From Culturomica massiliensis (GTDB taxonomy: Bacteria; Bacteroidota; Bacteroidia; Bacteroidales; Marinifilaceae): a stretch of DNA of 64,000 nucleotides. Location: positions 2,715,858-2,779,857 of the forward strand of contig NZ_LT594621.1 in NCBI RefSeq assembly GCF_900091655.1, given 5' to 3'. This document shows positions 31,278-45,542 of this stretch, piece by piece. The notes beneath the pieces were generated by a model. The model was not told where the DNA came from. It searched no databases and worked only from the letters and a program-made list of their open reading frames with translations. The position numbers were made by a program, and so were the translations under genes. The first letter of the stretch is position 1. Each line of letters starts with the position of its first letter.

Positions 31278-32723
31278 ATGGAAACAACCCTTTATCCCAT
31301 CATTGCGATCGTCGCCGTACTATTCGTCACCTTCGCCGCTATTCTGTCCCGTTACAAACGGTGTCCTTCCGATAAAATCCTTGTCGTTTACGGAAGAACA
31401 GGAAAAAACAAAGCCGGAGCAACCAGCTCTGCCCGTTGTATACACGGTGGTGCTGCTTTTATCTGGCCTGTATTCCAAAGCTACGCTTTCCTGGACCTTA
31501 CTCCGATTTCCATCGAATGCAACCTGACCAACGCTTTGAGTAAACAAAATATCCGTGTCGACGTCCCCTGTCGTTTTACCGTAGGTATATCCACCGAATC
31601 CGAAAGCATGACCAATGCCGCCGAACGCTTACTCGGACAACGACTTGAAAATATTCAGGATTTAGCTAAAGACATCTTATTCGGACAATTACGTCTGGTC
31701 ATTGCAACAATGGACATCGAAGAAATCAATTCCGACCGGGACAAATTTCTGGCCAATGTCAGTGCGAACGTAGAAGCCGAACTCCGTAAAATCGGTTTGA
31801 AACTGATCAATGTGAACGTCACCGACCTCCGCGATGAGTCCGGATACATTGAAGCTTTAGGAAAAGAAGCTGCAGCCAAAGCCATCAACGACGCCAAAAA
31901 AAGCGTAGCCGAACAAAACCGATTCGGGGAAATCGGTAAAGCCGAAGCCGACCGGGACAAAGACATCCGCATCGCCGAAACCGTACGCGACACCCGTGTC
32001 CGTACTTCAGAAGCCAATGCTTCAGCCGTAGAGGGGGAAAACAATGCCAAAATCCTCATCGCCGATTCCGATGCCACCCGTCGCGAAAGAGAAGCCGAAG
32101 CCGCACGTAAAGCCATCGCCGCCGAAAAAGTACAATCGGCAAAAGCCCTGGAAGAAGCCTACCTTGCAGAAAAAGAAGCCGAAACAGCCCGTGCCGAACG
32201 TGAAAAAGCGACCCAAACGGCCAACATCGTCGTTCCGGCACAGATTGAAAAAGAAAAAGCCATCATCGATGCAGAAGCAGAAGCAGAACGTATCCGCCGA
32301 CTGGCCAAAGGTGAAGCCGATGCAATCTATGCTAAGATGGATGCTCAGGCAAGAGGTTTACTTGAAATCCTGACCAAGCAAGCATCGGGTTACGACCGTA
32401 TCGTACAGGCGGCAAACGGCGATCCCGACAAAGCGATCCTCTTGCTGATCACCGACAAACTGCCCGAACTGGTTAAAACCCAGGTTGAAGCTGTTAAAAA
32501 CATTAAAATCGATAAAATTACGGTATGGGATGGTAACAACACTGGAAATGGTAACACATCCACAGCCAACTTTATTTCCGGCATGATGAAATCCGTTCCA
32601 CCGTTGAACGACCTGTTTAACATGGCAGGCCTGGATCTCCCGACCTATCTGAAAGGAAAAGAACAGGAAAAAAATCAACAAATACCGGTTGCCGAAGAAG
32701 TTCCCGCCGAGGAAACCAAATAA
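31278..32723 (+). CDS. Flotillin-like SPFH/Band 7 protein (YqiK/FloT-like)
   Basis: 481 aa with an N-terminal TM helix and an SPFH domain. A long Ala/Glu-rich coiled coil follows (EAEAARKAIAAEKVQSAKALEEAYLAEKEAETARAEREKA). Confidence 0.85.
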   Translation: METTLYPIIAIVAVLFVTFAAILSRYKRCPSDKILVVYGRTGKNKAGATSSARCIHGGAAFIWPVFQSYAFLDLTPISIECNLTNALSKQNIRVDVPCRFTVGISTESESMTNAAERLLGQRLENIQDLAKDILFGQLRLVIATMDIEEINSDRDKFLANVSANVEAELRKIGLKLINVNVTDLRDESGYIEALGKEAAAKAINDAKKSVAEQNRFGEIGKAEADRDKDIRIAETVRDTRVRTSEANASAVEGENNAKILIADSDATRREREAEAARKAIAAEKVQSAKALEEAYLAEKEAETARAEREKATQTANIVVPAQIEKEKAIIDAEAEAERIRRLAKGEADAIYAKMDAQARGLLEILTKQASGYDRIVQAANGDPDKAILLLITDKLPELVKTQVEAVKNIKIDKITVWDGNNTGNGNTSTANFISGMMKSVPPLNDLFNMAGLDLPTYLKGKEQEKNQQIPVAEEVPAEETK

Positions 32724-33011
32724 ATACCGAAAAGAGGCTGAATTCTAAGTCTCTTGCAAATTTTTGAGCAAGAAAATCGTGATAAACTGAGTTTTTATTG
32801 CGATTTTCTTTTTTTCGCATGTTTTCTTTTCCCAAATCTCGTGCTTTGTAAAAGCTTTCAAAAAGAAAAATAATCCCTCCTCTTTCTGGAATATCCCTTA
32901 TGCGCTTAATATAACAAATGGCGTTCTTCTTTAAATTTCCTTGATTTCGCCTGTCCTTATAAATCCGATTTCGTTTCATTTTAATTATTATTTTAAATTT
33001 AAAATCTGATA

Positions 33012-33059
33012 TTTGTATATTAAGATATAAATTATATATTTGTATTATTAATATACAAA
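33012..33059 (+). promoter_or_regulatory. Candidate Bacteroides sigma-AB promoter for the RiPP operon, embedded in a palindrome. The -33 element is TTTG and the -7 element is TATATTTG, with 19-bp spacing.
   Basis: TTTG lies at 33012-33015 and TATATTTG at 33035-33042. The perfect 12-bp inverted repeat TTTGTATATTAA (33012-33023) / TTAATATACAAA (33048-33059) brackets both elements. The start codon is at 33124. Confidence 0.4.
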
Positions 33060-33123
33060 ATGTGAATTTTAGAAAAATATTTTCATTTTTAAATATCATC
33101 ACGATACAAATTATGATAACCCT

Positions 33124-35085
33124 ATGCACTCCCCACTAACTATGTACTCCCCACTAACAGTTATAATTCCATTTTTAAATGAAGGTGATGAAGTTGAAAA
33201 TACTGTAAAAAGCATAAGGGAAACAAATAGGGAGTATATCGAAATAATATTGATAAACGATTGTTCCAGTGATGGGTATGATTACGAAAGAGTAGCTACT
33301 ATATATAATACACAATATATCGTTAACCCACAGAGAATGGGTGTTGCCAAAAGCAGAGAAATAGGGGTATCTTTAATCAAAACGCCGTTTTTTATTCTTC
33401 TCGATGCTCACATGAGATTTTATAAAGAGAATTGGTGTGATATCCTTGTCTCCTATTTAGAGAAGGAGGATCGAGCATTATACTGTCTTGCTTGTAAGGC
33501 AATTGATAAATCAGGTGAACCTATAAATAATCTTATCGGATGTGGTGCTAAACTATTTTTATATGGGAACGATTTTTCAAAAATATTACAGCCGGAATGG
33601 ATAACCGAAGAAATTCCATATCAAGAAAAGGATATAGAAGAAATCCCTTGCATTTTAGGAGCGGCTTATGCCATGTCCAGTCGCTATTGGAATTACCTGA
33701 AAGGCTTATCGATGCTCAAATATTACGGGGCAGACGAAGCTTATCTTAGTCTGAAAGTCTGGTTAGAAGGCGGACGATGTATATTGATTAAAAATACGAT
33801 TACCGGGCATATCTTCAGAACAGGCACTCAAACGCCTTATGCCATGTATTGGCCGCATTTATTTTTTAATAAACTGATTATTTCTGAAACAGTATTGCCG
33901 GAAGATTATAAACGATATGTTCACGCAAAATTAATGGCTTTGAATCCCGAAGCCTACATGACGGCATATGCAGAACTTATAAAAGTAAAAGACGATATCG
34001 TCAATTTACGGTCCTATTATCAAGCTATTTTTACAAAAAACTTTGATTTTTTCAAGCAAATCAATCAAAAATACATCGATTCTGAAAATACCGATATCCC
34101 CTCTATAAAAATAAACGAGGAAGACGGTATCCGAAAAGTTTTGAAATCGGTTTATGATTATTTGATTAAAAATAATTCCTCAACGATTGGTTTTGGAGTA
34201 GGTGGCTTAGGAGAAATAATGTATATGGCTGAATATGCTAGTATATACGCTAAAGACGAATTACCTAAGGTAAAAAAATTACTCGACGAATTGCTGGAAA
34301 ATAGTAAACTTGAGCAATTCGATTTCGAAACGGGGCTATCTGGCTTAGCCTGGGGACTGAATTATCTGAACCGTCATTTCCATGCTTTTGATATCGATGA
34401 ACAATTCAAAGAATCAGATAAGCTGTTATGTAATGTTTTGTATGATAAAATCCAAAAACAGGATTTTGCCATCCCGGGCGGTGCGTTGGGAATTTCTTTC
34501 CCTTTTATGGAAAGAAAAAACAATAAAACTTTAAATGATACTATCGACATATTGTTAAGATATATAAATGCTTATATCTTTCGGTACAAAGATCGGATTC
34601 CCCGGTTCACATTATTCGAGATTACCTATTTTCTGATTTTAGCCCGTGACAAAAATTTTTGTATTTCAGATTCTCTGCATCTCGTATCTCAAGTTCTGTC
34701 AGACAGTGATAAAACAGATTATCTTTCCGAATGTATCTCGGCCTACCTTATGATAGCTATAAATGAAAAAACAGAAAATTCCTCAAAAGATTTCCATTAC
34801 AATACACTGAGAAAGTCGGCGGCTTGCCGGGAAGCTGTTTTGGCTAAAGTATCGGAAATAGGTATTTATAAAGGATATCCATTACTGATGTATATATTCC
34901 ATGCTATGTATAGAAAAACGCAAGAAACGGTATTTAGAGATGCCCTGGCCTATTGGAAGCAAGAAACGGCATTGAAAACAGCAAGCATACTGCTTCACAC
35001 CTCCGTTTTAAGCGAAACTGAAAAGAGTTTTCTATATGGAATCGCAGGGGCCGCATTCGTTATATTAAAAACAAATCAACAATGA
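33124..35085 (+). CDS. Peptide glycosyltransferase candidate. It has an N-terminal GT-A (family-2-like) domain with ppGalNAc-T-like motifs, fused to a roughly 350-aa all-alpha C-terminal domain.
   Basis: 653 aa. The N-terminal 270 aa carry VIIPFLNEGDEV, LINDCSSD, LLDAHMRF (DxH), YYGADEAYLSLKVWLEGG (Gal/GalNAc-T-motif-like) and GHIFR. The C-terminal part is helical with GxxG-type repeats (GFGVGGLG, GLSGLAWGL, LYGIAGAAF). It is the first gene of the AT-rich operon. Confidence 0.6.
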   Translation: MHSPLTMYSPLTVIIPFLNEGDEVENTVKSIRETNREYIEIILINDCSSDGYDYERVATIYNTQYIVNPQRMGVAKSREIGVSLIKTPFFILLDAHMRFYKENWCDILVSYLEKEDRALYCLACKAIDKSGEPINNLIGCGAKLFLYGNDFSKILQPEWITEEIPYQEKDIEEIPCILGAAYAMSSRYWNYLKGLSMLKYYGADEAYLSLKVWLEGGRCILIKNTITGHIFRTGTQTPYAMYWPHLFFNKLIISETVLPEDYKRYVHAKLMALNPEAYMTAYAELIKVKDDIVNLRSYYQAIFTKNFDFFKQINQKYIDSENTDIPSIKINEEDGIRKVLKSVYDYLIKNNSSTIGFGVGGLGEIMYMAEYASIYAKDELPKVKKLLDELLENSKLEQFDFETGLSGLAWGLNYLNRHFHAFDIDEQFKESDKLLCNVLYDKIQKQDFAIPGGALGISFPFMERKNNKTLNDTIDILLRYINAYIFRYKDRIPRFTLFEITYFLILARDKNFCISDSLHLVSQVLSDSDKTDYLSECISAYLMIAINEKTENSSKDFHYNTLRKSAACREAVLAKVSEIGIYKGYPLLMYIFHAMYRKTQETVFRDALAYWKQETALKTASILLHTSVLSETEKSFLYGIAGAAFVILKTNQQ

Positions 35086-37448
35086 AATATTTATATTTGA
35101 TTTTTATATTGACTCTATCGCTGCAATCCGTAAAATCGCAGATTTTAATAGGACGTGTTACCGATCTCTCGGACAAACCTTTGTCGGAAGCTACGATTGT
35201 GATTACAGACAGCATGTATTACAACATCCTTATCACAGACATGAAAGGAGGGTTTCGTGCCTTGGACTGTCCCGACAGCATAACAATCCGGATTTCGTAT
35301 GTGGGATTCGCTACCTGGCAGAAAGATATAGTCATAAGTCAACTGAAGGACAGCTTGTTAACAGTAAAACTCGAACCGTCGAATATGGAATTGGACGACG
35401 TTATTGTGACCGCGCAACCGCCGAAAATCAAAAAAGAGCTGGGTAAGTTCGTAATGGACAACGTATCTGTATCGCCCTTTGCCAAAGGAACCAATGCACA
35501 GGGTTTTCTTCGTTTTATTCCTATTTTGAACACTGCCACTAACGGCACCGTCAAGATATTACACAGAAATGAGCCGGCAACCATTCAAATTAACGGCCGG
35601 CCGGCAACCATGCCGCTTAACCTTATACCAGCCCGCAATATCGATCGTATCGAAATAATCGCTGTTCCAGGAGCAGAATACGGCGGCAGCAAAGGCGGAA
35701 TAATCAATGTCGTGTTAAAAAAAGAAATGGACGAAGGATTGAAAGCAGTAGTCAGTCTGAGCGATAAACAAAGCTATTATAATACACAGAATATCGGAAC
35801 ATTTATCTACTATTCAGGAAAAAAAATACGTATTATGGGTAGTGTTTCCGGAAATAATTTCAAAATGCGGTTAAAAAACGACTATAAACATATTCTGGCT
35901 GCCGAAAATAAAGTTTGGGATATCGTTTCTCCAATTAAAATTACCAAAAAGACCTTAAGTGCAAGCTTTAATCTGGAATACTTGCCTACCGACCGGCAGA
36001 CATGGGGATTCCAGGTATCCGCTTTCGGTTCTGAAGACGAAAATACCTTCCATAGCAAGACAGTTTATTACAGGACAGAAACCATTACACCGGATTCTAT
36101 TTTTAAGACAAAGATCAAGAACGACAATCCATTCAGACCGCACCTAAGCGCAAACGTGAGTTATAACCTGAAAATGGATAACAACGGAAGTAAATGGAAC
36201 ACCAATCTATATTACGGGCATTACAACAACAAAACCAATACCCGTGAAATAACCGGAGAATATCGCCAAAACGACCCATCCGGCAAAGAAATCAATGCGA
36301 CACAATATACTTCCGTAAAAGTAGACTACAGCGGGTTGACAACCGATCTCCACAAAAAGTTCAATGACGACAACACATTGAAAAGCGGAGCCAATTTATA
36401 TTATTACCACATGAACAACAAACTAGCTTATGAACAGACAAGCGGTACAAAATACGGACCTGAGCCTGTGGGTAGCTATTCGTTTCTTCACAAAGAGTTT
36501 ACCGGAGCTTTTTATATCACTTACGAGCGGGTATGGTCAGATATGTTCGAAACCTCATTAGGAATAAGAACACAATACCGATGGGTAAACGGTATCGACA
36601 CAAGGTGGAGTAACCGCATAATTAAAGACTATTTCCATATTCTTCCGTCTGTTTCTCTGTTATTTACACCAAACGATGAGCATGAGTTCTCATTAGATCT
36701 AAGCTCGTCGGTATCTTACCCCTCACTTAACAACCTGACCTCTTTCAAATATTTTTTGTCAGCCAATGAATACTCTCAGGGGAATCCGGATTTACTCGCT
36801 TCGCGTAATTTTGATTTCATGTTTTCCTATAATTTCTTCGATGATTACAGTTTCGTTGTCGACTATATGCACGATACCGACTGCTGGAGCGATTTTGTCA
36901 TCCCGGACAAAGACGGCAATATCGTACATACACAAGCGAATTACGGCAATTGTGATGATATAGACTTCGCATTTATCATTCAAAAATATTTTTTCAACAA
37001 TCGTTGGATGCTTAGTAGTGACCTCGGTGCAAATTATACTTATGATAAAGGAAGTTATAAAGGAATCAGAATAGATAATAAAAATTGGAGTTACAACTTC
37101 CGGCTGAGCAACAATATTTTCTTGTCAAAGGATCAGAGTTGGCTAGCAGTAGTTGTATATAAATTTTCGAGTAAATCCAGAAATACAGTAACCATACCTG
37201 CCCATCATTCGATAGAAGCCAGCATACAAAAGACATTTAAAAATAGTTCGCTTTCAATTAATGCAGAGACGATGTTTAATAATAAAATGCAACTCAGCAG
37301 CAATTATGCGGAATCAGGGTATAGCTATAAGCTGACCAAACAATTTTATCCGTCTGTTTCGATAAATTATACCTATACATTCGGAAATAAAAAAGTAAGA
37401 AATATATATGAACGAAAAGATAGTAATATTTTAGATCGGATAAAATGA
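35082..37448 (+). CDS. Outer-membrane beta-barrel protein (TonB-dependent-receptor-like: CarbopepD_reg-like N-domain plus plug plus barrel)
   Basis: 788 aa. It has a signal peptide (LSLQSVKSQ), a GRVTDLSDKPLSEATIVI motif and a plug-like region (ATIQINGRPATMPLNLIPARNIDRIEI). It overlaps the upstream GT gene by 4 nt. Confidence 0.65.
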   Translation: MKYLYLIFILTLSLQSVKSQILIGRVTDLSDKPLSEATIVITDSMYYNILITDMKGGFRALDCPDSITIRISYVGFATWQKDIVISQLKDSLLTVKLEPSNMELDDVIVTAQPPKIKKELGKFVMDNVSVSPFAKGTNAQGFLRFIPILNTATNGTVKILHRNEPATIQINGRPATMPLNLIPARNIDRIEIIAVPGAEYGGSKGGIINVVLKKEMDEGLKAVVSLSDKQSYYNTQNIGTFIYYSGKKIRIMGSVSGNNFKMRLKNDYKHILAAENKVWDIVSPIKITKKTLSASFNLEYLPTDRQTWGFQVSAFGSEDENTFHSKTVYYRTETITPDSIFKTKIKNDNPFRPHLSANVSYNLKMDNNGSKWNTNLYYGHYNNKTNTREITGEYRQNDPSGKEINATQYTSVKVDYSGLTTDLHKKFNDDNTLKSGANLYYYHMNNKLAYEQTSGTKYGPEPVGSYSFLHKEFTGAFYITYERVWSDMFETSLGIRTQYRWVNGIDTRWSNRIIKDYFHILPSVSLLFTPNDEHEFSLDLSSSVSYPSLNNLTSFKYFLSANEYSQGNPDLLASRNFDFMFSYNFFDDYSFVVDYMHDTDCWSDFVIPDKDGNIVHTQANYGNCDDIDFAFIIQKYFFNNRWMLSSDLGANYTYDKGSYKGIRIDNKNWSYNFRLSNNIFLSKDQSWLAVVVYKFSSKSRNTVTIPAHHSIEASIQKTFKNSSLSINAETMFNNKMQLSSNYAESGYSYKLTKQFYPSVSINYTYTFGNKKVRNIYERKDSNILDRIK

Positions 37449-37501
37449 AAAAGCGGAACCCGAAAAGCATAAAGAGTAGGGAAAATATTATATTTTATAT
37501 T

Positions 37502-37801
37502 ATGAACCATAAATTGAAAATTGTGGAAGACTTTCTGAATTCATTGGAAAGCGAGCAACTGAAAGCAAATCAGGATACAATGCTCATAAGCGGTTCCTAT
37601 GAAAATCAATCAGGAGCAATAGGAACTAACGCAAGCAGATGTGTTAATGGAACAACCGCTTGTATTGGTTCTATTAATGACAGGCGGTGTTCCAATGGTG
37701 TTTGTGATTATACGATTAATGGTAAAAAATGTACGACAGTTAATGTCCCGACACCGGCACCGACACCGACACCAACCCCTGCAACGGGAGGCTCAATTTA
37801 G
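37502..37801 (+). CDS. Precursor peptide A1 (leader plus 5-Cys core plus Pro/Thr-rich tail)
   Basis: The sequence is MNHKLKIVEDFLNSLESEQLKANQDTMLISGSYENQSGA / IGTNASRCVNGTTACIGSINDRRCSNGVCDYTINGKKCTTVNVPTPAPTPTPTPATGGSI. Its leader is about 75% identical to that of A2. An alternative upstream start at 37445 adds a 19-aa basic extension that A2 lacks. Confidence 0.7.
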   Translation: MNHKLKIVEDFLNSLESEQLKANQDTMLISGSYENQSGAIGTNASRCVNGTTACIGSINDRRCSNGVCDYTINGKKCTTVNVPTPAPTPTPTPATGGSI

Positions 37802-37812
37802 TTGAGATTCTC

Positions 37813-37843
37813 AGGGTTTATGTAGATATTTTTGCATAAACCC
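37813..37843 (+). terminator. Intra-operon hairpin (partial terminator/attenuator) directly after precursor A1
   Basis: AGGGTTTATG-(11 nt)-CATAAACCCT forms a perfect 10-bp stem followed by TTATTA. Confidence 0.5.
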
Positions 37844-37917
37844 TTTATTAAAAGAAAGATTTATCAGGAATTTCATTTCTATCTATTAAGCCATTACTCA
37901 CATTCTACCGATAAAAA

Positions 37918-39228
37918 ATGACCGATTACAAATTCAGTAAGTATAATTCGATATTAAAAACCGATGCTAAATTAAACGTATTGTACAATGGGTTGAGCGA
38001 CCGATTCATAGTGTTCAGAAAAAAACTCCGGGCACTGTTGGATAAAGATATCGAAGAATTGAAAAATACATCGGAAGAATTTTATCGTACATTAGTAGAA
38101 GCTGATGCAATTATAGCAACCGACCGAGACGAATTCGCAGAACTGAAAAGCCTGAGTGAAAAGATAGACAACGCACAGCATGAATGCAAAATAATTGTTA
38201 ATCCGACGATGGATTGCAATTTTAAATGCTGGTATTGTTATGAAAATCATGTCGTCAATTCAAAAATCAATTCCGATATTCTGGAACGGATCAAACGATT
38301 GATCAGGCGACAAACAGAAAATGAGCAAATCGAATTTATAGATCTGGCATTCTTCGGAGGAGAACCTCTTCTCCAATATCCTGCCATCAAAGAACTGATC
38401 GACTATACCAGGGAACAATGCTGTTATCAAAAAAAGAATTACCACCTTGGATTTACTTCAAATGGATACTTACTGAATGAGGAAATAATCAATCATCTGA
38501 GCAGTATCGAAGACTCCAAAAGCTTTCAGATCACTCTCGACGGAGACCGGGAAAAGCATAATAAAATCAGGCATGAAAAAAATAACAGTGACTCATATGA
38601 TACAATCATATTCAATAGTAAAATACTATTGAAACATAAAATACACGTCCTGCTAAGAATAAACTATACATTGCATAATATATTATCCGTCAAAAATATA
38701 TTAGCAGATATAAATGATATTCCGGAAACAGACAGAAAATACCTCAGGATCAGTTTTCACCGGGTATGGCAGGATATAGACCATGATGAGGGAAATAAAA
38801 CATTGATCGCAGATATCATAGAGTCATTTAAAAGCGAATTCGATCAAACTAACGATTCATATCATATGAATGACATGCATTACCCATGCTACGGAGATAA
38901 ACAAGGGACAGTAGTTGTGAATTACAATGGGGATGTCTATAAATGTACCGCACGGAATTTCTCGGCAGAAAATCGATATGGCATATTACTATCCGATGGG
39001 ACAATAGCCTGGGATCAGCAAAAACTTGAAAAACGGAAACATGCTAAAATGAACAAAGAGATATGTAAATCATGCCGTATATTACCACTATGTGGAGGAG
39101 GATGTGCACAAAATTCGGTCGAAAATCCCGATAATTTTTGCGGATTAGCTTTCACTGAATCCGACAAAGACCGAATCATATTTAATCATTTTTACAATAG
39201 ATATTTAAACAATACATACAATGAATAA
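37918..39228 (+). CDS. Radical SAM/SPASM-domain peptide maturase (sactisynthase/ranthipeptide-synthase-like) with an N-terminal leader-recognition-like extension
   Basis: 436 aa. The CX3CX2C motif (CNFKCWYC) lies at about residue 100 after a roughly 95-aa N-terminal domain. A GGEP-like motif (FFGGEPLL) is present. The C-terminal Cys-rich SPASM region is CYGDKQ...YKCTARNF...CKSCRILPLCGGGCAQN...FCGLAF. Confidence 0.75.
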   Translation: MTDYKFSKYNSILKTDAKLNVLYNGLSDRFIVFRKKLRALLDKDIEELKNTSEEFYRTLVEADAIIATDRDEFAELKSLSEKIDNAQHECKIIVNPTMDCNFKCWYCYENHVVNSKINSDILERIKRLIRRQTENEQIEFIDLAFFGGEPLLQYPAIKELIDYTREQCCYQKKNYHLGFTSNGYLLNEEIINHLSSIEDSKSFQITLDGDREKHNKIRHEKNNSDSYDTIIFNSKILLKHKIHVLLRINYTLHNILSVKNILADINDIPETDRKYLRISFHRVWQDIDHDEGNKTLIADIIESFKSEFDQTNDSYHMNDMHYPCYGDKQGTVVVNYNGDVYKCTARNFSAENRYGILLSDGTIAWDQQKLEKRKHAKMNKEICKSCRILPLCGGGCAQNSVENPDNFCGLAFTESDKDRIIFNHFYNRYLNNTYNE

Positions 39229-39487
39229 AATAAAAATCGTAAAAGACTTTCTAAATTCCTTAGAAAGCGAACAAATGCAAGACGGACAAGATATTCTGTT
39301 ATTGTCAAAACCACAGGAGAACTATTCTGCCGGAACTTCTATCAACAGCCGATGTTATAATGGGAATGCGACTTGCAACAGCAGTCAGAATGAAAAAAAA
39401 TGCTTTAACGAAAAAAATTACTGCAACCAAGCCTACAATTCCGGAAGGTGTAAAGAACAGAAACCCCGTTGGGCGAAGAAGAAATAG
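39221..39487 (+). CDS. Precursor peptide A2 (leader plus 5-Cys core plus Lys-rich tail)
   Basis: The sequence is MNKIKIVKDFLNSLESEQMQDGQDILLLSKPQENYSAG / TSINSRCYNGNATCNSSQNEKKCFNEKNYCNQAYNSGRCKEQKPRWAKKK. Its start overlaps the rSAM stop by 8 nt. Confidence 0.7.
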   Translation: MNKIKIVKDFLNSLESEQMQDGQDILLLSKPQENYSAGTSINSRCYNGNATCNSSQNEKKCFNEKNYCNQAYNSGRCKEQKPRWAKKK

Positions 39488-39493
39488 GAATAA

Positions 39494-41677
39494 ATGAGAA
39501 AAATACCATTTTTCCGCCAACGCTCATCCAATATATGCGGACCGACCTGTATACAAATGCTGTGTGCTTATTATGGCAAATTGTACAATATAGATACGAT
39601 CATACAGCATTGTGAATTAACGAAGGCCGGCGTATCCATCAGGGATATCGTCAATATGGGAGAAAGCTTGGGATGCTATGCTTCATCTTTTAGCGTAAAC
39701 CCGGCAGAAGCCCGAAGAATCCCCCTTCAAGCCATCCTTTATCTTAAAGAAGGTCATTTTGTTATCCTTGAAAAAATAAAATATAAACGAGGTCATTATT
39801 TCTACAAAATAATAGATCCGGATTACGGCCGGGTGGAATTGTCTGAAAAGGCTTTTATTGAAAAATGGATGGATAATAACAGAGGATTCGGGGTACTCCT
39901 GGTACCTAAAGACGATTTTCTTACTATCAATCCTGAAATTAATCTCCGGAACCGTAATAAAGAGATTTTTACTGATATAAAATCGGTGGCCAGCATTCAT
40001 AAGAAAAAATTCATATGGGTGATCTTACTGACTTTTATCGTGCTTGGAACCAATTGGGCCATGCCGATTCTGTTACAGAAAACGATAGATGACGGTATTA
40101 TGGCAAAGGATATAAATTTCGTTTGGCTGATGTTATTGGCTCAATTCGTCTTCTTCATCGGGTTTATGTTATCAAACACAATAACCAATCTTCTTTCGGC
40201 AAAAATAAATTTTAAAATCAACATTGACTTTGTCCAAAAATACTTCAACAAAGTTGTCAGGCTTCCGATCAATTTTTTTGATACAACGTTCCGGTCGGAT
40301 TTGATACAACGATTGTCCGACCTCGGAAGGATTAACGGATTTATAACAGACAATATTGTCGATATTGTCTTTTCATTTGCAAACCTCATCGTTTTTTCAG
40401 TCATCCTGATGATCTACAACAGTAAGATATTTTTATTATTCATTCTTTTTAGTACCCTTTCTATCGTTTACTCATTGCTGTTCCTGAAAAAAAGAAAAAG
40501 TTTGGACTATTCTTTCTTCTCAATAGATTCACAAAGACGGAATTCTGTATATGAGTTGATTATGGGAATGTCCGAGATCAAGATCAACAATGCTTACCAT
40601 TCCCGGATCAAGGCGTGGAATATCATTGAATCCAAACTGAATAAACTGAAGCTAAAAATATTATACTGGAGCTTTTACTCATCTGAGGGCGTTTCAATTA
40701 TCGGACGTCTAAGGGATATCGTACTGACAGCCTTATCAGCATATTATGTGATCCAGGATCAAATGACAATGGGTACAATGATGATGATAAGTTTTGTTTT
40801 AGGACAGCTTTCTGCCCCTATAAGCGATATGATGTCCTACACTAAAATTATTCAGGACATTAAATTGTCTTATGAACGGGTATTTGATATATATAGTAAA
40901 AAAGATGAAGATGATGAGAAAATGATACATCTAAATCATCAGATAAGCGATGGTATCCGATTTGAAAACGTATATTTTAAATATCCAGGAACATCGAATC
41001 CATATATACTCAAAGATGTAAGTATTGATATCCCGGCGGGAAAAACTACCGCTATTGTCGGTCCCAGTGGAGGAGGCAAAACAACCATGTTAAAATTGAT
41101 CCTGGGTTTTTACCAACCGTTGCAAGGAGCCATCAGGATCGATCGGTACAATTTAAATGACATCCGGCGGGAATCATGGAGAGAACAATGTGGTATTGTA
41201 ATGCAAGACGGTTATATCTTCAGCGCCTCAATTGCCGAAAACATAGCTTTACATGAAGAGGAACCTGATATCAAGCGGCTTATATATGCGGCAAAAATAG
41301 CTAATCTATACGATTTCATTGAAAATTTACCGATGAAATTCAACACCAAAATTGGTGAAATAGGCCTCAATCTCAGCGGAGGAGAAAAACAACGTCTCTG
41401 GATAGCGCGTGCTGTTTACAAAAATCCTGCTATCGTATTATTTGATGAAGCTACTTCCTTGTTAGATGCGAATAATGAAAAAACAATCATTGGTAATTTA
41501 ACTGCCTTTTTATCTAAGAGAACAGTAGTTATTATTGCTCATAGGCTAAGTACGGTAAAAAATGCCGATAATATTATTTTCTTGGATAAAGGAACTATTG
41601 TGGAACAAGGAACTCACGATGATTTGATTAAATTACGCGGAGCCTATTATAATTTAGTTAAAAACCAACTGAATTAG
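39494..41677 (+). CDS. Peptidase C39 domain-containing ABC transporter (bacteriocin leader-cleaving exporter, SunT/LagD-like)
   Basis: 727 aa. The N-terminal C39 domain carries catalytic Cys and His context (NICGPTCIQM, EGHFVIL). Six TM helices follow. The ABC module shows Walker A (GPSGGGKTT), the signature motif (LSGGEKQR) and Walker B (VLFDEATS). Confidence 0.85.
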   Translation: MRKIPFFRQRSSNICGPTCIQMLCAYYGKLYNIDTIIQHCELTKAGVSIRDIVNMGESLGCYASSFSVNPAEARRIPLQAILYLKEGHFVILEKIKYKRGHYFYKIIDPDYGRVELSEKAFIEKWMDNNRGFGVLLVPKDDFLTINPEINLRNRNKEIFTDIKSVASIHKKKFIWVILLTFIVLGTNWAMPILLQKTIDDGIMAKDINFVWLMLLAQFVFFIGFMLSNTITNLLSAKINFKINIDFVQKYFNKVVRLPINFFDTTFRSDLIQRLSDLGRINGFITDNIVDIVFSFANLIVFSVILMIYNSKIFLLFILFSTLSIVYSLLFLKKRKSLDYSFFSIDSQRRNSVYELIMGMSEIKINNAYHSRIKAWNIIESKLNKLKLKILYWSFYSSEGVSIIGRLRDIVLTALSAYYVIQDQMTMGTMMMISFVLGQLSAPISDMMSYTKIIQDIKLSYERVFDIYSKKDEDDEKMIHLNHQISDGIRFENVYFKYPGTSNPYILKDVSIDIPAGKTTAIVGPSGGGKTTMLKLILGFYQPLQGAIRIDRYNLNDIRRESWREQCGIVMQDGYIFSASIAENIALHEEEPDIKRLIYAAKIANLYDFIENLPMKFNTKIGEIGLNLSGGEKQRLWIARAVYKNPAIVLFDEATSLLDANNEKTIIGNLTAFLSKRTVVIIAHRLSTVKNADNIIFLDKGTIVEQGTHDDLIKLRGAYYNLVKNQLN

Positions 41678-41946
41678 GCCGGTTTATAAACAATAAGTCT
41701 TTTCAAGCCAACACTCCTGCTTTGAATAAATTTACCGGAGGCAAAACAATAAACTAAAATCGGTTATTCCCCAGAATAGCTGGACTGCCCGGAAACATTC
41801 TACACAAATCACATGCCATATCCCACCGGTAACATAGTGACAGCTTTCCTGACTATTTTTCATGAAAATTTGACAGCTTTAACAAACGCCGCATTCAATT
41901 CACATCCTTGCCTCTTTTCCGGGCTACCCATATATTCAACCAAAAG

Positions 41947-42925: not shown

Positions 42926-44143
42926 TCATTTCATCTTTCTGATCTTCCTTTTTATCCGGAAATAATAACCGGTTACTGCAAAAACAGCTCCGAGTAATGA
43001 AGCCAGACAAGACAAAATCCGTGTTGTCATTCCACCCCAGGTACCGGTATGTACGGAATAAATCCATCCCCTTATCTTTCCGGATTTCGGCTGGTCCTTA
43101 TACAACTGTACATCTGTGATTTGTCCGCTTGCCGGATCAAAAAGATAACGATCGCTTCCTCTCGTATTTCCATAATCAGCGGTAGCAACAGTTGCCGAAC
43201 CGTCCTGAATTGTAATGGAATTGAAAGAGGAATACCGCTCTTGCAAAACGGATAACACCTCCGCCCACCGGATATAATCCGGTTTTTGCGACTCTTTTCT
43301 TTTTCCTGCGGATAATCCGGTTTCTTTTACAGCAACACGGCTTTCCCGGCCGGAAAAACTTCTATCCCCGTCCTTCTTTTCCACCCCCCTTCCGATCTTC
43401 CCTTCTTGTCCCATACTTCGTCCTCCGGCTGAAATCGGGACATGTACCTCTGTCCGTCCGGTAGTGCCTCCGAACACTGCATAAAAAGCATCACGATACC
43501 AGCCGAACGACCAGGTTAACCCGGTTAAAGCAAGGGCAAGCAAAAACAATGCCGCATAAAAACCCCCGGACACATGCAAATCATAAAAAAAACGATGCCA
43601 ACCGGCCCTGGTTTTTATTTTCAACCGGTTTTTCAGCATCTTCCTGTTACATGGAAACCAAACCGCAAGTCCGCTCACCAAAATAACGACAAACACCAAT
43701 GTTGCATATCCCACCACGGCTTTCCCCAGCGAAAAGCTGCCGTCCCGTTTATAAGAATCGAGCAACCAGCGGTGAAGGCGCATTGTTTGCATGAAAAATC
43801 CCTGTCCGTCGTCTATCCCGGTTACCTCTGCCGTATAAGGATCGATAAAACAGACTGCTTTCTTTCCCGGCAAAACCAACTGATAGGTCCGTCTCGGATC
43901 AGAAGAAATCCGGATACCGTTTATTTTAACAGAATCGGGTAATTGTTGCTGTGCCGAATAAATCAGGAAGGCAGGCGAAAGCGGCTCACCTTTGATTTCT
44001 CTGACAAAATAACGGGAAGGATAACATAACTCCAGGATTTCTGTTTCAAATACCAATATTGCACCTGTCAGGCAGACAATCGTTATGATAATACCGAAAG
44101 GTATCGATAACCATAAATGCATTTTCGCAAAAAACTTTCTCAT
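42926..44143 (-). CDS. PepSY-associated TM helix protein (XusC-like)
   Basis: 405 aa with N- and C-terminal TM helices. It is last in an operon with a TBDR and a DUF4374 gene. Confidence 0.65.
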   Translation of the reverse strand: MRKFFAKMHLWLSIPFGIIITIVCLTGAILVFETEILELCYPSRYFVREIKGEPLSPAFLIYSAQQQLPDSVKINGIRISSDPRRTYQLVLPGKKAVCFIDPYTAEVTGIDDGQGFFMQTMRLHRWLLDSYKRDGSFSLGKAVVGYATLVFVVILVSGLAVWFPCNRKMLKNRLKIKTRAGWHRFFYDLHVSGGFYAALFLLALALTGLTWSFGWYRDAFYAVFGGTTGRTEVHVPISAGGRSMGQEGKIGRGVEKKDGDRSFSGRESRVAVKETGLSAGKRKESQKPDYIRWAEVLSVLQERYSSFNSITIQDGSATVATADYGNTRGSDRYLFDPASGQITDVQLYKDQPKSGKIRGWIYSVHTGTWGGMTTRILSCLASLLGAVFAVTGYYFRIKRKIRKMK

Positions 44144-44162
44144 CCCCGGTCATATTTGATTG

Positions 44163-45542
44163 TCAATTCCGGAAATAAGTCAGTTTGCCTACCCCGCTGA
44201 TCTTCTCCGATTCTACGGTAAGTCCTTTTGTTGCAACAGCCGTTTTCGGATCAATCCGGTAAATGGCCGGCTGATTTCCGTCAGTTGTCGTTACAGGCAT
44301 ATAGGCAATACCGTTTTCAGAAAACGGTGTATTACCGAACCCGGAAATGACATCCTTGGCAGGCATACCTGTTACATAAGTAAGCCTTCCGGACTCTCCT
44401 TTGTAAATAGCCAGTTCATTGGCTGTAAACCCACTCTCCGTCAAAGGCCTGTCATACATCAGCAACAGAAAATAATCTTCGGTAATATGCCAGCAACGTA
44501 AAAACGACCTACCCTCGGTTTGTTCTTCGAGATTACAGTAGTAATTCGGATCGAATTCCTCTGTTCCGGCTTTAATACGCACCACTCCGGCAGGTAAAGC
44601 CGTTTTTTGTACCTGGGCGGTCATCGTCTTGGCATAAGACGGTGAAAATACATATACATCACCATTGTCGGCTGCCCAAATCGTTTGGTAATATTGCGAT
44701 TTGTAACGTCCGCAGGCATAACTGATCTTATCCGTCCGGATTAATTTCGGACTCTCGAACCTCTCATCGGCATATATGGCAATCCAGGCTTCATCCGGAT
44801 ACTGTGTCCACTGTAATTCACCTTTCTCATAAGCACCGCTGCCACTTCCCCCCGATTCGGTCTTCACCAACTCCGGATACTTAACATACTCGCCGTTATT
44901 CGCCTTTACACCGTACTTACTCAATCCCATCGGAATCGCCGCAGAATAAATCTTATTACCGGCTTGCAGAATACCGGCCAAAGTGACAAACTCACCGTTT
45001 CCCAAATAATTCTCTGCCATGAGGACACTTTGATTCGTTGCAAACGTTTCATTGACCACATCCAGGTAAGACAACAGAAAACCCTTCGGCAGAAAACCGT
45101 TTCCATCGGACATATTCTCACCCAGATTACCGGTGGAAGAAGTGATAATATAATTCTTATAAATACCGTAAGATGTAAACCGTTTGATCTCATACGTATT
45201 GTCACGCTCTTCCGCTTTCCCTTTTTCATTCAGAACATACGAAGAAGTTACGCCTGCATTCCCCTGATTATATACCAGACGATACAGATATTTGTCCTGA
45301 TAAAAAATCCATTGAGTTCCGCTCTCTGTGGTCAAACCGTTATTTTTAGCCGACACACTTCCCTCATCGAGTTTATCGCTGATCAGCAAATAATTGGCAT
45401 CCCCGACAGAAGCAGCAATGACAAAATCAGACAATGCGCCATCACCTCCGTCACCCCCGCCCGATACATGATCGTCGCAGGATATTGTTAAACTCAAACA
45501 CAAAATAACGGCTAAACTCCGGTTAAAATAATTCTTTTTCAT
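44163..45542 (-). CDS. DUF4374-like surface lipoprotein (XusB-like siderophore-binding candidate)
   Basis: 459 aa with a lipoprotein signal (LSLTISCDD). It sits between the TBDR and the PepSY gene, as in Bacteroides xusABC. Confidence 0.55.

What the first reader, a model, noticed from the sequence alone, without database searches (positions are those of the whole stretch)
32990..41700. AT-rich island encoding a candidate undescribed glycosylated, radical-SAM-modified Cys-rich peptide system
An 8.7-kb island is markedly AT-richer than its flanks (flotillin gene on the left, NTase-fold gene on the right). It is organised as one tightly packed plus-strand operon. The genes are, in order, a GT-A glycosyltransferase-helical-domain fusion (4-nt overlap with the next gene), an outer-membrane beta-barrel and precursor A1. 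A hairpin follows A1. Then come a radical SAM/SPASM enzyme (8-nt overlap with the next gene), precursor A2 (6-nt gap) and a C39-peptidase ABC exporter. Known glycocin clusters such as sublancin combine a GT2 S-glycosyltransferase and a C39-ABC exporter with disulfide oxidoreductases. Sactipeptide and ranthipeptide clusters instead combine rSAM/SPASM enzymes with C39-ABC exporters. A cluster with a peptide glycosyltransferase, an rSAM/SPASM maturase and an OM beta-barrel, in a Gram-negative Bacteroidales genome, fits neither class as far as I know. Haft's TIGRFAMs define a computational 'GG-Bacteroidales' peptide/rSAM family that may overlap with this one, but it has no described glycosyltransferase and is uncharacterised.
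Basis: partly seen in the sequence, partly recalled or inferred. Interest (0 to 1): 0.9.

Follow-up and report, generated by a model that had tools for sequence, protein, structure and literature searches.

The report
Strain-variable modified-peptide biosynthesis island
A 9-kb island present in only some strains of the gut bacterium Culturomica massiliensis encodes two small cysteine-rich peptides together with a radical-SAM enzyme, a mucin-type-like sugar transferase, a cleaving exporter and an outer-membrane barrel; it is a real but experimentally untouched member of a peptide-product family that is widespread in Bacteroidales.

Summary
Six tightly packed plus-strand genes lie in an AT-rich block (GC 0.36 against 0.45-0.47 in the flanks). 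Comparison with empty-site strains puts its limits at 32756-41758.

The organism is Culturomica massiliensis. Among about 20 long metagenomic contigs the site is empty in 13, full in 4 and decayed in 3.

All domain calls hold, with three refinements:
- The glycosyltransferase (GT) is closest to eukaryotic polypeptide GalNAc-transferases, with all three Mn ligands conserved.
- Its "helical domain" is a LanC-like fold without zinc ligands.
- The barrel resembles a TonB-dependent receptor.

A1 and A2 belong to a family of at least 59 small proteins. Three other clusters keep the same gene order.

Searching from the rSAM enzyme shows that the core module is precursor + rSAM + barrel + C39 exporter. 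The GT is an accessory. It co-occurs with Thr/Ser/Pro-rich tails after the last Cys (33/40 precursors against 2/9).

Best reading: the rSAM enzyme makes Cys thioether cross-links, probably to the conserved Asn residues. The GT O-glycosylates the A1 tail. The exporter cuts at GA/AG. None of this chemistry is shown.

rSAM+LanC+GT combinations in Bacteroidales were already flagged by an in-silico survey in 2023. I found no experimental work. I class it as a new variant of a known kind.

The parts
32756..41758 (.). Strain-variable island (9003 bp, GC 0.363) that replaces a 226-bp filler found in empty-site strains
   Evidence: blastn against empty-site contig L082 and decayed-island contig L084; GC; no terminal repeats or target-site duplication found
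33012..33042 (+). Bacteroidetes-type promoter-like motifs: TTTG at 33012 and TAnnTTTG (TATATTTG) at 33035, about 89 nt upstream of the GT start codon
   Evidence: pattern search; a consensus match only, no evidence of function
33124..35085 (+). Peptide glycosyltransferase fusion. Residues ~10-300 form a GT-A domain of ppGalNAc-T type (D94-x-H96, H229). Residues ~330-653 form a LanC-like toroid without Zn ligands
   Evidence: PF00535; PDB phmmer and alignment to GalNAc-T2; AF2 pLDDT 86 with the Foldseek top 50 all ppGalNAc-T; C-terminal model pLDDT 89 hits LanCL1/2, GCR2, ThurKC; 14/18 homologs hit PF05147; only Gly/Leu invariant in the C-terminal half
35082..37448 (+). Outer-membrane barrel resembling a TonB-dependent receptor: signal peptide, CarboxypepD_reg domain, weak plug-like segment, OMP_b-brl_3 barrel
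   Evidence: PF14905 E 4e-43, PF13715; Plug E 0.013, below threshold, and homolog L096 hits TonB_dep_Rec_b-barrel above threshold; no PDB sequence relative; co-occurs with the rSAM in 25/39 and 36/44 loci
37502..37801 (+). Precursor A1 (99 aa; an alternative upstream start at 37445 gives 118 aa): leader, 5-Cys/Asn-rich core, PTPAPTPTPTPAT tail
   Evidence: Leader is paralogous to A2 at DNA level (57 nt, 81%); member of a family of at least 59; orthologs in L093, L096, L097; PT-repeat length varies between strains while the Cys/Asn core is kept
37813..37844 (+). Stem-loop after A1 (14-bp stem, U-rich 3' side): candidate attenuator or partial terminator
   Evidence: RNA fold, dG -24.2 kcal/mol, z -2.6; not called by the simple terminator scan
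37918..39228 (+). Radical SAM/SPASM peptide maturase (C100-x3-C104-x2-C107; seven C-terminal SPASM Cys)
   Evidence: PF04055, TIGR04085; best solved relative is CteB 5WGG, E 3e-18; no NCBIfam equivalog reaches its cutoff (best is CefB, 160 of 600 bits); Cys positions
39221..39487 (+). Precursor A2 (88 aa): same leader as A1, 5-Cys/Asn-rich core, short basic tail with no T/P stretch
   Evidence: Alignment with A1; ortholog in L096 with the same basic tail; exact sequence seen on 206 contigs
39494..41677 (+). Peptidase-C39 ABC exporter (PCAT) with an intact catalytic set (Q9, C15, H88, D108), Walker A at 523 and LSGG at 627
   Evidence: PF03412, PF00664, PF00005; motif positions; 72% identical to the L096 exporter

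Best explanation
The island is a biosynthesis and export cassette for ribosomal peptide products (RiPPs), acquired horizontally.

**Proposed pathway.** Two paralogous precursors, A1 and A2, carry a shared leader. In the cytoplasm the rSAM/SPASM enzyme converts the five core cysteines into intramolecular thioether cross-links. The most likely partners are the conserved Asn residues 3-4 positions upstream of each Cys, giving ranthipeptide-like chemistry as in NxxcB. The GT-LanC-like fusion holds the peptide with its zinc-less LanC-like domain and O-glycosylates Thr/Ser in A1's Pro/Thr-rich tail, in a mucin-type manner. A2, which lacks such a tail, is probably not glycosylated there. The C39-ABC exporter then removes the leader at the double-glycine-equivalent site (GA|I in A1, AG|T in A2) and pumps the peptides across the inner membrane. 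The TonB-dependent-receptor-like barrel handles the outer-membrane step, which could be export, re-uptake or self-protection. The products most likely act in competition between related gut bacteria.

**Shown:** gene content, domain folds, catalytic motifs, conservation of the cassette and precursors, strain variability, and the link between the GT and T/S/P tails.

**Inferred:** every chemical modification, the cleavage sites, the role of the barrel and the biological activity.

**My sub-probabilities:** RiPP cassette 0.9; thioether cross-links 0.55; O-glycosylation of the tail 0.5; antagonistic function 0.4.
For: **Domain evidence.**
- Domain and family hits.
- The GT aligns with GalNAc-T2 over residues 12-270. 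D94xH96, H229 and the Gal/GalNAc-T motif align with their counterparts and are invariant in the family.
- Foldseek's top 50 hits are all ppGalNAc-T.
- The C-terminal domain has a LanC-like fold, and 14/18 homologs hit PF05147.
- The rSAM has the CX3CX2C motif plus a 7-Cys SPASM domain. Its closest solved relative is the thioether-forming CteB.
- The C39 catalytic residues are intact.

**Precursor family.**
- A1 and A2 belong to a family of at least 59 members. The family's GG motif aligns with GA in A1 and AG in A2.
- The same gene order, GT-OMP-A-rSAM-A-PCAT, occurs in L096, L097 and L093. L096 keeps both an A1-type precursor with a T/P tail and an A2-type with a basic tail.

**Conservation of the cassette.**
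- 44 of 77 GT-family loci carry this rSAM family. Of those, 36 also carry the barrel and 15 the PCAT within the DNA fetched.
- Loci found from the rSAM mostly have precursor + rSAM + barrel + PCAT without the GT.

**Link between GT and tail.** At least 5 T/S/P residues follow the last Cys in 33/40 precursors of GT-containing loci, against 2/9 in GT-less loci (Fisher p 0.001).

**Asn-Cys pattern.** Asn sits at position -3 of 67% of 260 Cys in 32 related precursors. NxxcB makes a Cys-Asn beta-thioether at an NxxC motif (PMC9389541).

**GT relatives without rSAM.** They sit next to GG-leader, Cys-rich, T/P-containing peptides, with VKOR/thioredoxin genes in L091.

**Strain variation.** The site is empty, full or decayed in different strains.
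Against: - No modification has been observed for any member of this family.
- The rSAM reaches no curated equivalog cutoff, so its chemistry is open. Epimerisation, C-C cross-links and formylglycine-type oxidation are not excluded.
- In A1 and A2 the Asn sits mostly at -4 rather than -3, unlike the NxxC precedent.
- A1 and A2 lack a canonical GG, so the cleavage site rests on alignment alone.
- The GT/tail association is not corrected for relatedness, and n = 9 for the GT-less set.
- One locus (L099) has a distant GT2 next to tail-less precursors.
- No membrane-fusion protein and no immunity gene is present.
- A TonB-dependent-receptor-like barrel is by analogy an importer, not an exporter.
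- In decayed islands the barrel stays intact while the precursors are lost. That fits a role other than export.
Confidence: 0.5

Rival explanations
1. Glycocin-like reading. The GT modifies a residue inside the Cys-rich core: S-linked on Cys, O-linked on the conserved Ser of the S-x-N motif, or N-linked on Asn in N-x-S/T sequons. It does not act on the tail. Some cysteines form disulfides.
For: The precursors carry conserved S-x-N motifs, and several N-x-S/T sequons (NAS, NGT, NAT, NSS) can be read directly from the A1 and A2 sequences. A2 has no T/P tail yet sits in the same operon. A relative of the GT lies next to VKOR/thioredoxin genes and a Cys-rich peptide, as in sublancin-type clusters. 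A2 has two C-x6-C spacings.
Against: SunS-type GTs do not appear among PDB sequence or fold matches, while ppGalNAc-Ts fill the list. T/S/P tails track the presence of the GT across loci. The island has no thiol-disulfide oxidoreductase. Five Cys is an odd number. The C1-C2 spacing varies from x4 to x7 across the family.
Confidence: 0.2
2. Metal-binding peptide shuttle. The Cys-rich peptides are secreted, bind a metal and are taken up again through the TonB-dependent-receptor-like barrel, by analogy with methanobactin and its receptor MbnT.
For: The barrel is TonB-dependent-receptor-like. It is a core partner of the rSAM and PCAT in 25/39 loci. Many family cores look metallothionein-like, with GCGC or NCNC repeats. 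The barrel stays intact in decayed islands. A xenosiderophore-type XusB/PepSY_TM/TonB-receptor set lies next door.
Against: A thioether-forming rSAM would consume the thiols. No metal-related regulator or periplasmic binding protein is in the island. Presence in only about a third of strains is more typical of antagonism loci. There is no precedent in Bacteroidales that I know of (my own knowledge).
Confidence: 0.12
3. The products are signalling peptides (quorum sensing or kin recognition) rather than toxins, and the barrel is the sensor or uptake route.
For: No immunity gene is in the island. One homologous cluster (L097) starts with an HTH regulator. Many rSAM-modified peptides in streptococci are controlled by quorum sensing (PMC9389541).
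Against: The Culturomica island has no regulator or kinase. Its patchy presence within one species, together with decayed copies, fits antagonism loci better.
Confidence: 0.13
4. The GT-LanC-like fusion is itself a ring-forming enzyme. Glycosylation of Ser/Thr would activate them for elimination, and the LanC-like domain would then add Cys to the resulting dehydro-residue. This would be a lanthionine route without LanB, LanM or a kinase.
For: The LanC-like fold is fused to a Ser/Thr-directed GT type. Class III lanthipeptide synthetases also lack the Zn ligands, by my own knowledge of that family, and their structures are among the fold matches (ThurKC, CuvL, SalKC). No LanB or LanM lies in these clusters (PMC10352776). 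GT-LanC-like proteins also occur with Cys-rich peptides without any rSAM.
Against: There is no lyase domain. No His, Cys or acidic residue is conserved in the LanC-like half; only Gly and Leu are invariant. Many family members have a truncated LanC-like part or none, at about 550 or 320 aa. There is no chemical precedent for glycosyl elimination in RiPPs.
Confidence: 0.05

Closest known systems
Glycocins (sublancin-type: SunA precursor, SunS GT2 S-glycosyltransferase, SunT C39-ABC exporter, BdbA/B oxidoreductases)
   Same: A leader-bearing Cys-rich precursor, a cytoplasmic GT-A peptide glycosyltransferase with a C-terminal helical peptide-handling domain, and a C39-ABC exporter. A 42%-identical GT relative sits next to VKOR/thioredoxin genes.
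   Different: The GT is ppGalNAc-T-like, and SunS is not among the sequence or fold matches. The helical domain is LanC-like. An rSAM takes the place of disulfide oxidoreductases. There are five Cys rather than two nested C-x6-C pairs. The host is Gram-negative and the cluster has an OM barrel.
Ranthipeptides and sactipeptides (CteB, PapB, NxxcB rSAM/SPASM thioether maturases)
   Same: An rSAM/SPASM enzyme with a 7-Cys SPASM domain, CteB as the closest solved relative, Cys-rich precursors, a C39-ABC exporter, and Asn placed 3-4 residues before Cys as in the NxxC substrate.
   Different: No equivalog model is met: PapB scores 109 of 340 bits and SCIFF 95 of 425. The Asn spacing in A1 and A2 is mostly -4. 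There is an added GT and an OM barrel. The chemistry is untested.
Haft's GG-Bacteroidales system (TIGR04148 rSAM, TIGR04149 precursor, TIGR04150 pseudo-rSAM)
   Same: A Bacteroidales RiPP-like cassette with an rSAM, a GG-type leader peptide and often LanC-like or GT neighbours. About 550-aa GT relatives occur with that other rSAM type.
   Different: The rSAM scores 48 bits against a cutoff of 300. The precursors do not hit TIGR04149. There is no pseudo-rSAM gene.
Eukaryotic polypeptide GalNAc-transferases (CAZy GT27)
   Same: The catalytic-domain fold, the DxH + His Mn site and the Gal/GalNAc-T motif are shared. The likely acceptor is a Pro/Thr-rich, mucin-like stretch.
   Different: Identity is only about 20%. 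There is no ricin-type lectin domain; a LanC-like domain stands in its place. The enzyme is bacterial and cytoplasmic. The sugar donor and the anomeric outcome are unknown.
rSAM + LanC (+GlyS) 'areas of interest' in Bacteroidales from the BAGEL4 survey (Front Microbiol 2023, PMC10352776)
   Same: The same combination of enzyme classes, LanC-like proteins without the C...CH zinc motif, and PCAT plus OMP without a membrane-fusion protein.
   Different: The survey did not report the GT-LanC fusion, the ppGalNAc-T likeness, the T/S/P tails, the Asn-Cys pattern or this precursor family. Its detailed clusters contain a pseudo-rSAM. Culturomica was not mentioned.

Membership tests
RiPP biosynthetic gene cluster (generic) | Small precursor gene(s) with a leader and core next to tailoring enzymes and a leader-cleaving exporter, with the precursor conserved in homologous clusters | tested here: met
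   A1 and A2 share a leader. There are at least 59 family members. The same arrangement occurs in L096, L097 and L093.
Glycocins | SunS/GccA-type GT2 peptide S/O-glycosyltransferase | tested here: inconclusive
   A GT-A/PF00535 domain is present. The nearest structures are ppGalNAc-Ts, and no SunS-type chain appears among PDB sequence hits at E<=1 or in the Foldseek top 50.
Glycocins | Two nested disulfides from paired C-x6-C motifs, plus dedicated thiol-disulfide oxidoreductases | tested here: not met
   There are five Cys with spacings 6/8/4/8 and 6/8/6/8. No oxidoreductase gene lies in the island.
Glycocins | Glycan attached to the mature peptide | not testable with these tools
   Needs mass spectrometry of the product.
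Ranthipeptide/sactipeptide systems | rSAM with CX3CX2C and a SPASM domain adjacent to a Cys-containing precursor | tested here: met
   C100/C104/C107; TIGR04085 at 46.7 bits against a cutoff of 27; seven SPASM Cys.
Ranthipeptide/sactipeptide systems | Membership of a curated maturase equivalog (PapB, SCIFF/CteB, CefB, TIGR04463, RumMC and others) | tested here: not met
   The best is CefB NF038107 at 160.6 bits against a cutoff of 600. All others are also below their cutoffs. The same holds for four related rSAMs.
Ranthipeptide/sactipeptide systems | Cys-to-carbon thioether in the product | not testable with these tools
   Inferred only from the Cys/Asn pattern and the NxxcB precedent.
GG-Bacteroidales system (TIGR04148/04149/04150) | rSAM meets TIGR04148, precursor meets TIGR04149, and a pseudo-rSAM TIGR04150 is present | tested here: not met
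   TIGR04148 scores 48.1 bits against a cutoff of 300. A1 and A2 do not hit TIGR04149 at E<=1. There is no third rSAM-like gene in the island.
Lanthipeptide systems (LanC cyclase) | LanC fold | tested here: met
   The C-terminal model matches LanCL1/2, GCR2 and ThurKC. 14/18 homologs hit PF05147. The window protein itself is below Pfam detection.
Lanthipeptide systems (LanC cyclase) | Zn ligands (Cys, Cys, His) and a partner dehydratase (LanB, or LanM/kinase-lyase) | tested here: not met
   No Cys or His is invariant in the LanC-like half of 18 or 22 aligned homologs. There is no dehydratase gene in the island.
Polypeptide GalNAc-transferase-like GT-A (GT27-like) | DxH plus a distal His as Mn site, the Gal/GalNAc-T motif and the catalytic-domain fold | tested here: met
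   D94xH96, H229 and YGADEAYLSLKVWLEGG align with DSH, GHVFR and WGGENLEISFRVWQCGG of GalNAc-T2. Foldseek gives E about 1e-13.
Polypeptide GalNAc-transferase-like GT-A (GT27-like) | C-terminal ricin-type lectin domain; UDP-GalNAc donor; retaining mechanism | tested here: not met
   A LanC-like domain takes the place of the lectin domain. The donor and stereochemistry cannot be tested here.
Peptidase-containing ABC transporters (PCAT) | C39 domain with catalytic Gln/Cys/His/Asp, six-helix ABC membrane domain and an ATPase | tested here: met
   PF03412, PF00664 and PF00005; Q9, C15, H88, D108, Walker A and LSGG.

The most novel reading that the evidence does not exclude
This would be the first example of a RiPP class in which a mucin-type (ppGalNAc-T-like) glycosyltransferase, fused to a zinc-less LanC-like peptide-handling domain, decorates a Pro/Thr-rich tail of a peptide whose Cys/Asn-rich core is stapled by rSAM-made Cys-Asn thioethers. 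Export in a Gram-negative would go through a PCAT plus a TonB-dependent-receptor-like barrel rather than a TolC/MFP route. In short, a 'glyco-ranthipeptide' family spread through gut Bacteroidales. A still bolder sub-case, at about 5%, is that glycosylation activates Ser/Thr for LanC-like thioether formation.
Probability: 0.3. Interest if true: 0.8.

Novelty: new variant of a known kind. Interest (0 to 1): 0.62.

Why it matters
Gut Bacteroidales are major players in the human microbiome. Very few of their secreted peptide weapons or signals are known, and none of their rSAM, LanC-like or GT clusters has been characterised.

This island offers a compact six-gene, strain-variable test case from a cultured species, with natural empty-site and decayed controls. 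It could settle three points:
- What the abundant zinc-less LanC-like proteins of Bacteroidales do.
- Whether bacteria use a mucin-type O-glycosylation enzyme on ribosomal peptides.
- How a PCAT-exported peptide crosses, or re-enters through, the outer membrane without a TolC/MFP partner.

A mucin-like glycopeptide made by a mucus-associated commensal would also be of interest for host interaction.

Tried and rejected
- **GG-Bacteroidales membership.** Rejected on scores.
- **SunS-like GT.** Not supported by PDB sequence or fold searches.
- **Functional LanC cyclase.** No Zn ligands are conserved.
- **Mobile-element signatures.** I found no terminal direct or inverted repeats and no target-site duplication. 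I did not scan for integrases or tRNAs beyond the ORF list. There is no plasmid match by megablast.
- **Word-indexed protein search with A1.** It returned only Culturomica's own cluster. The exhaustive profile search was needed to find the family.
- **Minus-strand 170-aa ORF at 32617-33129.** It has no Pfam hit and overlaps the end of the flotillin gene. I treat it as spurious.
- **Sigma-70 promoter scan.** Uninformative in this AT-rich DNA: 48 found against 38.6 expected.
- **Simple terminator scan.** It did not call the A1 hairpin.
- **Literature searches.** I searched for glycocin or ranthipeptide with Bacteroid*, for Culturomica, for GT27 with RiPP, and for the TIGR0414x names. I found only in-silico surveys and no experimental work. 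Subscription-journal papers are not covered by that library.

Full report
**1. The observation**

| Gene | Coordinates | Size | Junction |
|---|---|---|---|
| GT fusion | 33124-35085 | 653 aa | |
| Barrel | 35082-37448 | 788 aa | 4-nt overlap |
| A1 | 37445 or 37502-37801 | 118 or 99 aa | |
| rSAM | 37918-39228 | 436 aa | |
| A2 | 39221-39487 | 88 aa | 8-nt overlap |
| C39-ABC | 39494-41677 | 727 aa | 6-nt gap |

- GC is 0.30-0.41 across the block against 0.43-0.54 outside. Averaged, it is 0.363 against 0.465 and 0.449.
- The hairpin after A1 is a 14-bp stem at 37813-37844 followed by a U-rich stretch, with dG -24 kcal/mol and z -2.6.
- A Bacteroidetes-type TTTG ... TAnnTTTG pair lies about 89 nt upstream of the first gene. 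This is a consensus match only.

**2. Organism and population genetics**

- All six proteins match RefSeq entries of Culturomica massiliensis (Odoribacteraceae) exactly.
- I looked up the flanking flotillin gene in public assemblies. About 20 of the 23 long contigs read could be classified from the places listed, and they show three states of the same site:
  - Empty in about 13: flotillin, a 226-bp filler with a 37-codon ORF, then the right-hand gene.
  - Full island in about 4, plus L001-L003.
  - Decayed in about 3: the GT is frameshifted to 590 + 59 aa, the barrel is intact, A1 through most of A2 is deleted, and the exporter is cut to 285 aa.
- blastn fixes the island at 32756-41758 (9003 bp) replacing the filler.
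- I found no terminal repeats or target duplication and no plasmid match.
- A 78%-identical GT with barrel and an A1-like gene sits in a different neighbourhood of cobalamin genes on contig L093. The cassette therefore moves.

**3. The enzymes**

*Glycosyltransferase, N-terminal half.*
- Pfam sees only Glycos_transf_2.
- Against solved structures, the best sequence matches are all polypeptide GalNAc-transferases, at E about 1e-12 over residues 12-271.
- In the residue-level alignment, D94-x-H96 falls on the DSH Mn site, H229 on the GHVFR histidine, and YGADEAYLSLKVWLEGG on WGGENLEISFRVWQCGG. These residues are invariant among 18 homologs.
- The AlphaFold model has pLDDT 86. Its top 50 Foldseek hits in the PDB are all ppGalNAc-Ts. 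SunS-type glycocin enzymes do not appear.

*Glycosyltransferase, C-terminal half.*
- Most homologs carry PF05147 (LanC-like). 14 of 18 aligned homologs hit it, with a best E of 6e-24.
- A separate model of residues 330-653 has pLDDT 89. It matches LanCL1, LanCL2 (TM 0.70), GCR2 and the cyclase domains of class III lanthipeptide synthetases.
- No Cys or His is conserved there; only Gly and Leu are invariant.
- It is therefore a zinc-less LanC-like toroid. I take it to be a peptide-handling domain.

*rSAM.*
- It has C100-x3-C104-x2-C107 and seven SPASM cysteines.
- It passes the SPASM domain model but no equivalog. The best is CefB at 160 of 600 bits, and TIGR04148 reaches 48 of 300.
- Its closest solved relative is the thioether-forming CteB.

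*Exporter.* It has an intact C39 catalytic set of Q9, C15, H88 and D108.

*Barrel.*
- It has a signal peptide, a CarboxypepD_reg domain and an OMP_b-brl_3 barrel, plus a sub-threshold Plug match at E 0.013.
- Its 42%-identical homolog in L096 passes the TonB_dep_Rec_b-barrel model.
- It therefore resembles a TonB-dependent receptor.

**4. The precursors**

- A1 and A2 are paralogs. They are 44% identical, and their leader DNA is 81% identical over 57 nt.
- An exhaustive profile search of 1.84 billion representatives found 59 small proteins (74-126 aa) at E <= 1e-3.
- These share two features:
  - A leader of the form K-(I/L)-x-x-F-(I/V)-x-S-L-E ... Q-Q ... G-G.
  - A core built from repeats of N-x3-C-x-N ... 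C-x2-S-x-N-x-(K/R)2-C.
- The family's GG aligns with GA in A1 and AG in A2. The likely cleavage sites are therefore GA|I and AG|T. This is inference by alignment.
- Strain variants of A1 differ in PT-repeat length but keep every Cys and Asn.

**5. Homologous clusters**

- L096 has the same order. Identities to the window proteins are: GT C-terminus 51%, barrel 42%, A1-type 54% with a TTTPPP tail, rSAM 60%, A2-type 48% with a short basic tail, exporter 72%.
- L097 has an HTH gene, an extra GT2, GT-LanC-like (49%), barrel (40%), two precursors and an rSAM (56%).
- The small ORFs are therefore conserved, and so is the split into tailed and untailed precursors.

**6. The wider family**

*Found from the GT.*
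- A genome scan seeded with the GT found 77 usable Bacteroidales loci. Of these, 44 carry this rSAM family next to the GT, 36 also have one to three barrels, and 15 have the PCAT within the DNA fetched.
- The usual order is GT - rSAM - precursor - barrel(s) - PCAT. An example is Prevotella sp. P3-122, L051.
- Their precursors have an LRGGF-type leader, a Cys/Asn-rich core, a T/S/P-rich stretch and often a hydrophobic end such as SLLF.
- In 32 such peptides, Asn occupies position -3 of 67% of 260 cysteines. This is the NxxC pattern, for which NxxcB is known to form a Cys-Asn beta-thioether (PMC9389541).

*Found from the rSAM.*
- A metagenome scan seeded with the rSAM gave a different picture. 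Of the 39 closest loci, 25 have the barrel and most have the PCAT. Only 2 have a GT-family protein anywhere in the DNA fetched: L111, where it adjoins the rSAM, and L109, about 6 kb downstream.
- The core module is therefore precursor + rSAM + barrel + PCAT, and the GT is an add-on.

*A natural comparison.*
- At least five T/S/P residues follow the last Cys in 33 of 40 precursors from GT-containing loci.
- The figure is 2 of 9 for GT-less loci with at least 5 kb of context (Fisher p 0.001, Mann-Whitney p 6e-5).
- The test is not corrected for relatedness, and the GT-less sample is small. It is still the best available pointer to the GT's substrate.

*GT relatives without any rSAM.* These also sit beside GG-leader, Cys-rich, T/P-containing peptides in L005, L007 and L091. 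In L091 they lie with VKOR/thioredoxin genes, as in glycocin clusters.

**7. Mechanism proposed**

The steps below are inferred unless marked otherwise.
1. The leader-bearing A1 and A2 are bound in the cytoplasm.
2. The rSAM staples the five Cys to nearby carbons, most likely the conserved Asn.
3. The GT-LanC-like protein O-glycosylates the A1 tail.
4. The PCAT cleaves at GA/AG and exports the peptides.
5. The barrel serves the outer-membrane step.

The direction of the barrel's role is unresolved. Its receptor-like build, and its survival in decayed islands, leave import or self-protection as open as export. The strain-variable, decaying distribution fits an antagonism locus.

**8. What is known**

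- A 2023 BAGEL4 survey of 1,136 Bacteroidales genomes counted 263 rSAM+LanC and 41 rSAM+LanC+GlyS areas. It noted that the LanC proteins lack the zinc motif and that PCAT+OMP clusters lack a membrane-fusion protein (PMC10352776). Earlier surveys noted the TIGR04148-50 cassettes (PMC4573289).
- None of these describes the GT-LanC fusion, its ppGalNAc-T likeness, the tails, the Asn-Cys pattern or this precursor family.
- I found no experimental study. The searchable library lacks most subscription journals, so this absence is not proof.

**9. Verdict**

- It is a new variant of known kinds of system: an rSAM thioether RiPP combined with a peptide glycosyltransferase. It belongs to a widespread family that is computationally flagged but uncharacterised.
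- Interest is moderate to high, at 0.62. The most novel reading is a 'glyco-ranthipeptide' class with mucin-type glycosylation and barrel-assisted transit. I give it about 0.3 probability and 0.8 interest if true.

Noticed in passing
window 33122-33157: An 18-nt tandem duplication (CTATGCACTCCCCACTAA / CTATGTACTCCCCACTAA) spans the GT start and gives two in-frame ATGs (MHSPLT-MYSPLT). It probably explains the 653-aa and 647-aa forms of this protein in public data.
   Followed up: partly
L084 and L086 (same site as window 32756-41758): In decayed copies of the island the GT is frameshifted, and the precursors, rSAM and most of the exporter are deleted. The 788-aa barrel gene stays intact. This hints that the barrel may be useful on its own, for example for resistance or uptake.
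   Followed up: partly
L082 11481-11706 (empty-site allele): The 226-bp filler that the island replaces carries a minus-strand 37-codon ORF. The same segment is still present to the right of the decayed island in L084. The full island and the filler are therefore alternative alleles rather than a clean insertion.
   Followed up: partly
L091 10001-15703 / L092: A 42%-identical GT-LanC-like gene is followed by a VKOR-thioredoxin fusion, a 93-aa GG-leader Cys-rich peptide with an S/T/P/G tail, and a second thioredoxin-like protein. This is a glycocin-like cluster without an rSAM in another Bacteroidota genome.
   Followed up: partly
L011-L081 (precursors listed): Most precursors of the GT+rSAM family end in a conserved hydrophobic C-terminus (G-x-S-L-L-F, GFSF, MSMLF and similar) after the T/S/P stretch. 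It resembles an outer-membrane beta-signal ending in Phe. A1 and A2 of Culturomica lack it. Its role is unknown.
   Followed up: no
L033, L034, L037, L040, L041, L068, L076: Related cassettes carry two or three tandem copies of the TonB-dependent-receptor-like barrel gene between the precursor and the exporter.
   Followed up: no
window 42926-45542 and further right: Immediately right of the island lie PepSY_TM, XusB-family and TonB-dependent receptor genes, a xenosiderophore-uptake-type set (Pfam marks). To the left lie chorismate-binding, aminotransferase-IV and GATase genes, which look like p-aminobenzoate synthesis.
   Followed up: no
RefSeq names it hypothetical or, in one strain, 'phosphoglycerate mutase family'.
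   Followed up: partly
window 32617-33129 (minus strand): Gene callers in public assemblies predict a 160-170-aa minus-strand ORF across the island's AT-rich left end, overlapping the flotillin stop. It has no family hit and is probably spurious.
   Followed up: partly
L061: One GT-family hit (44% over residues 11-314) lies on a contig labelled Thiomargarita sp., and another (L072) on one labelled Roseburia sp. These are outside Bacteroidota. They could reflect binning errors or horizontal transfer.
   Followed up: no
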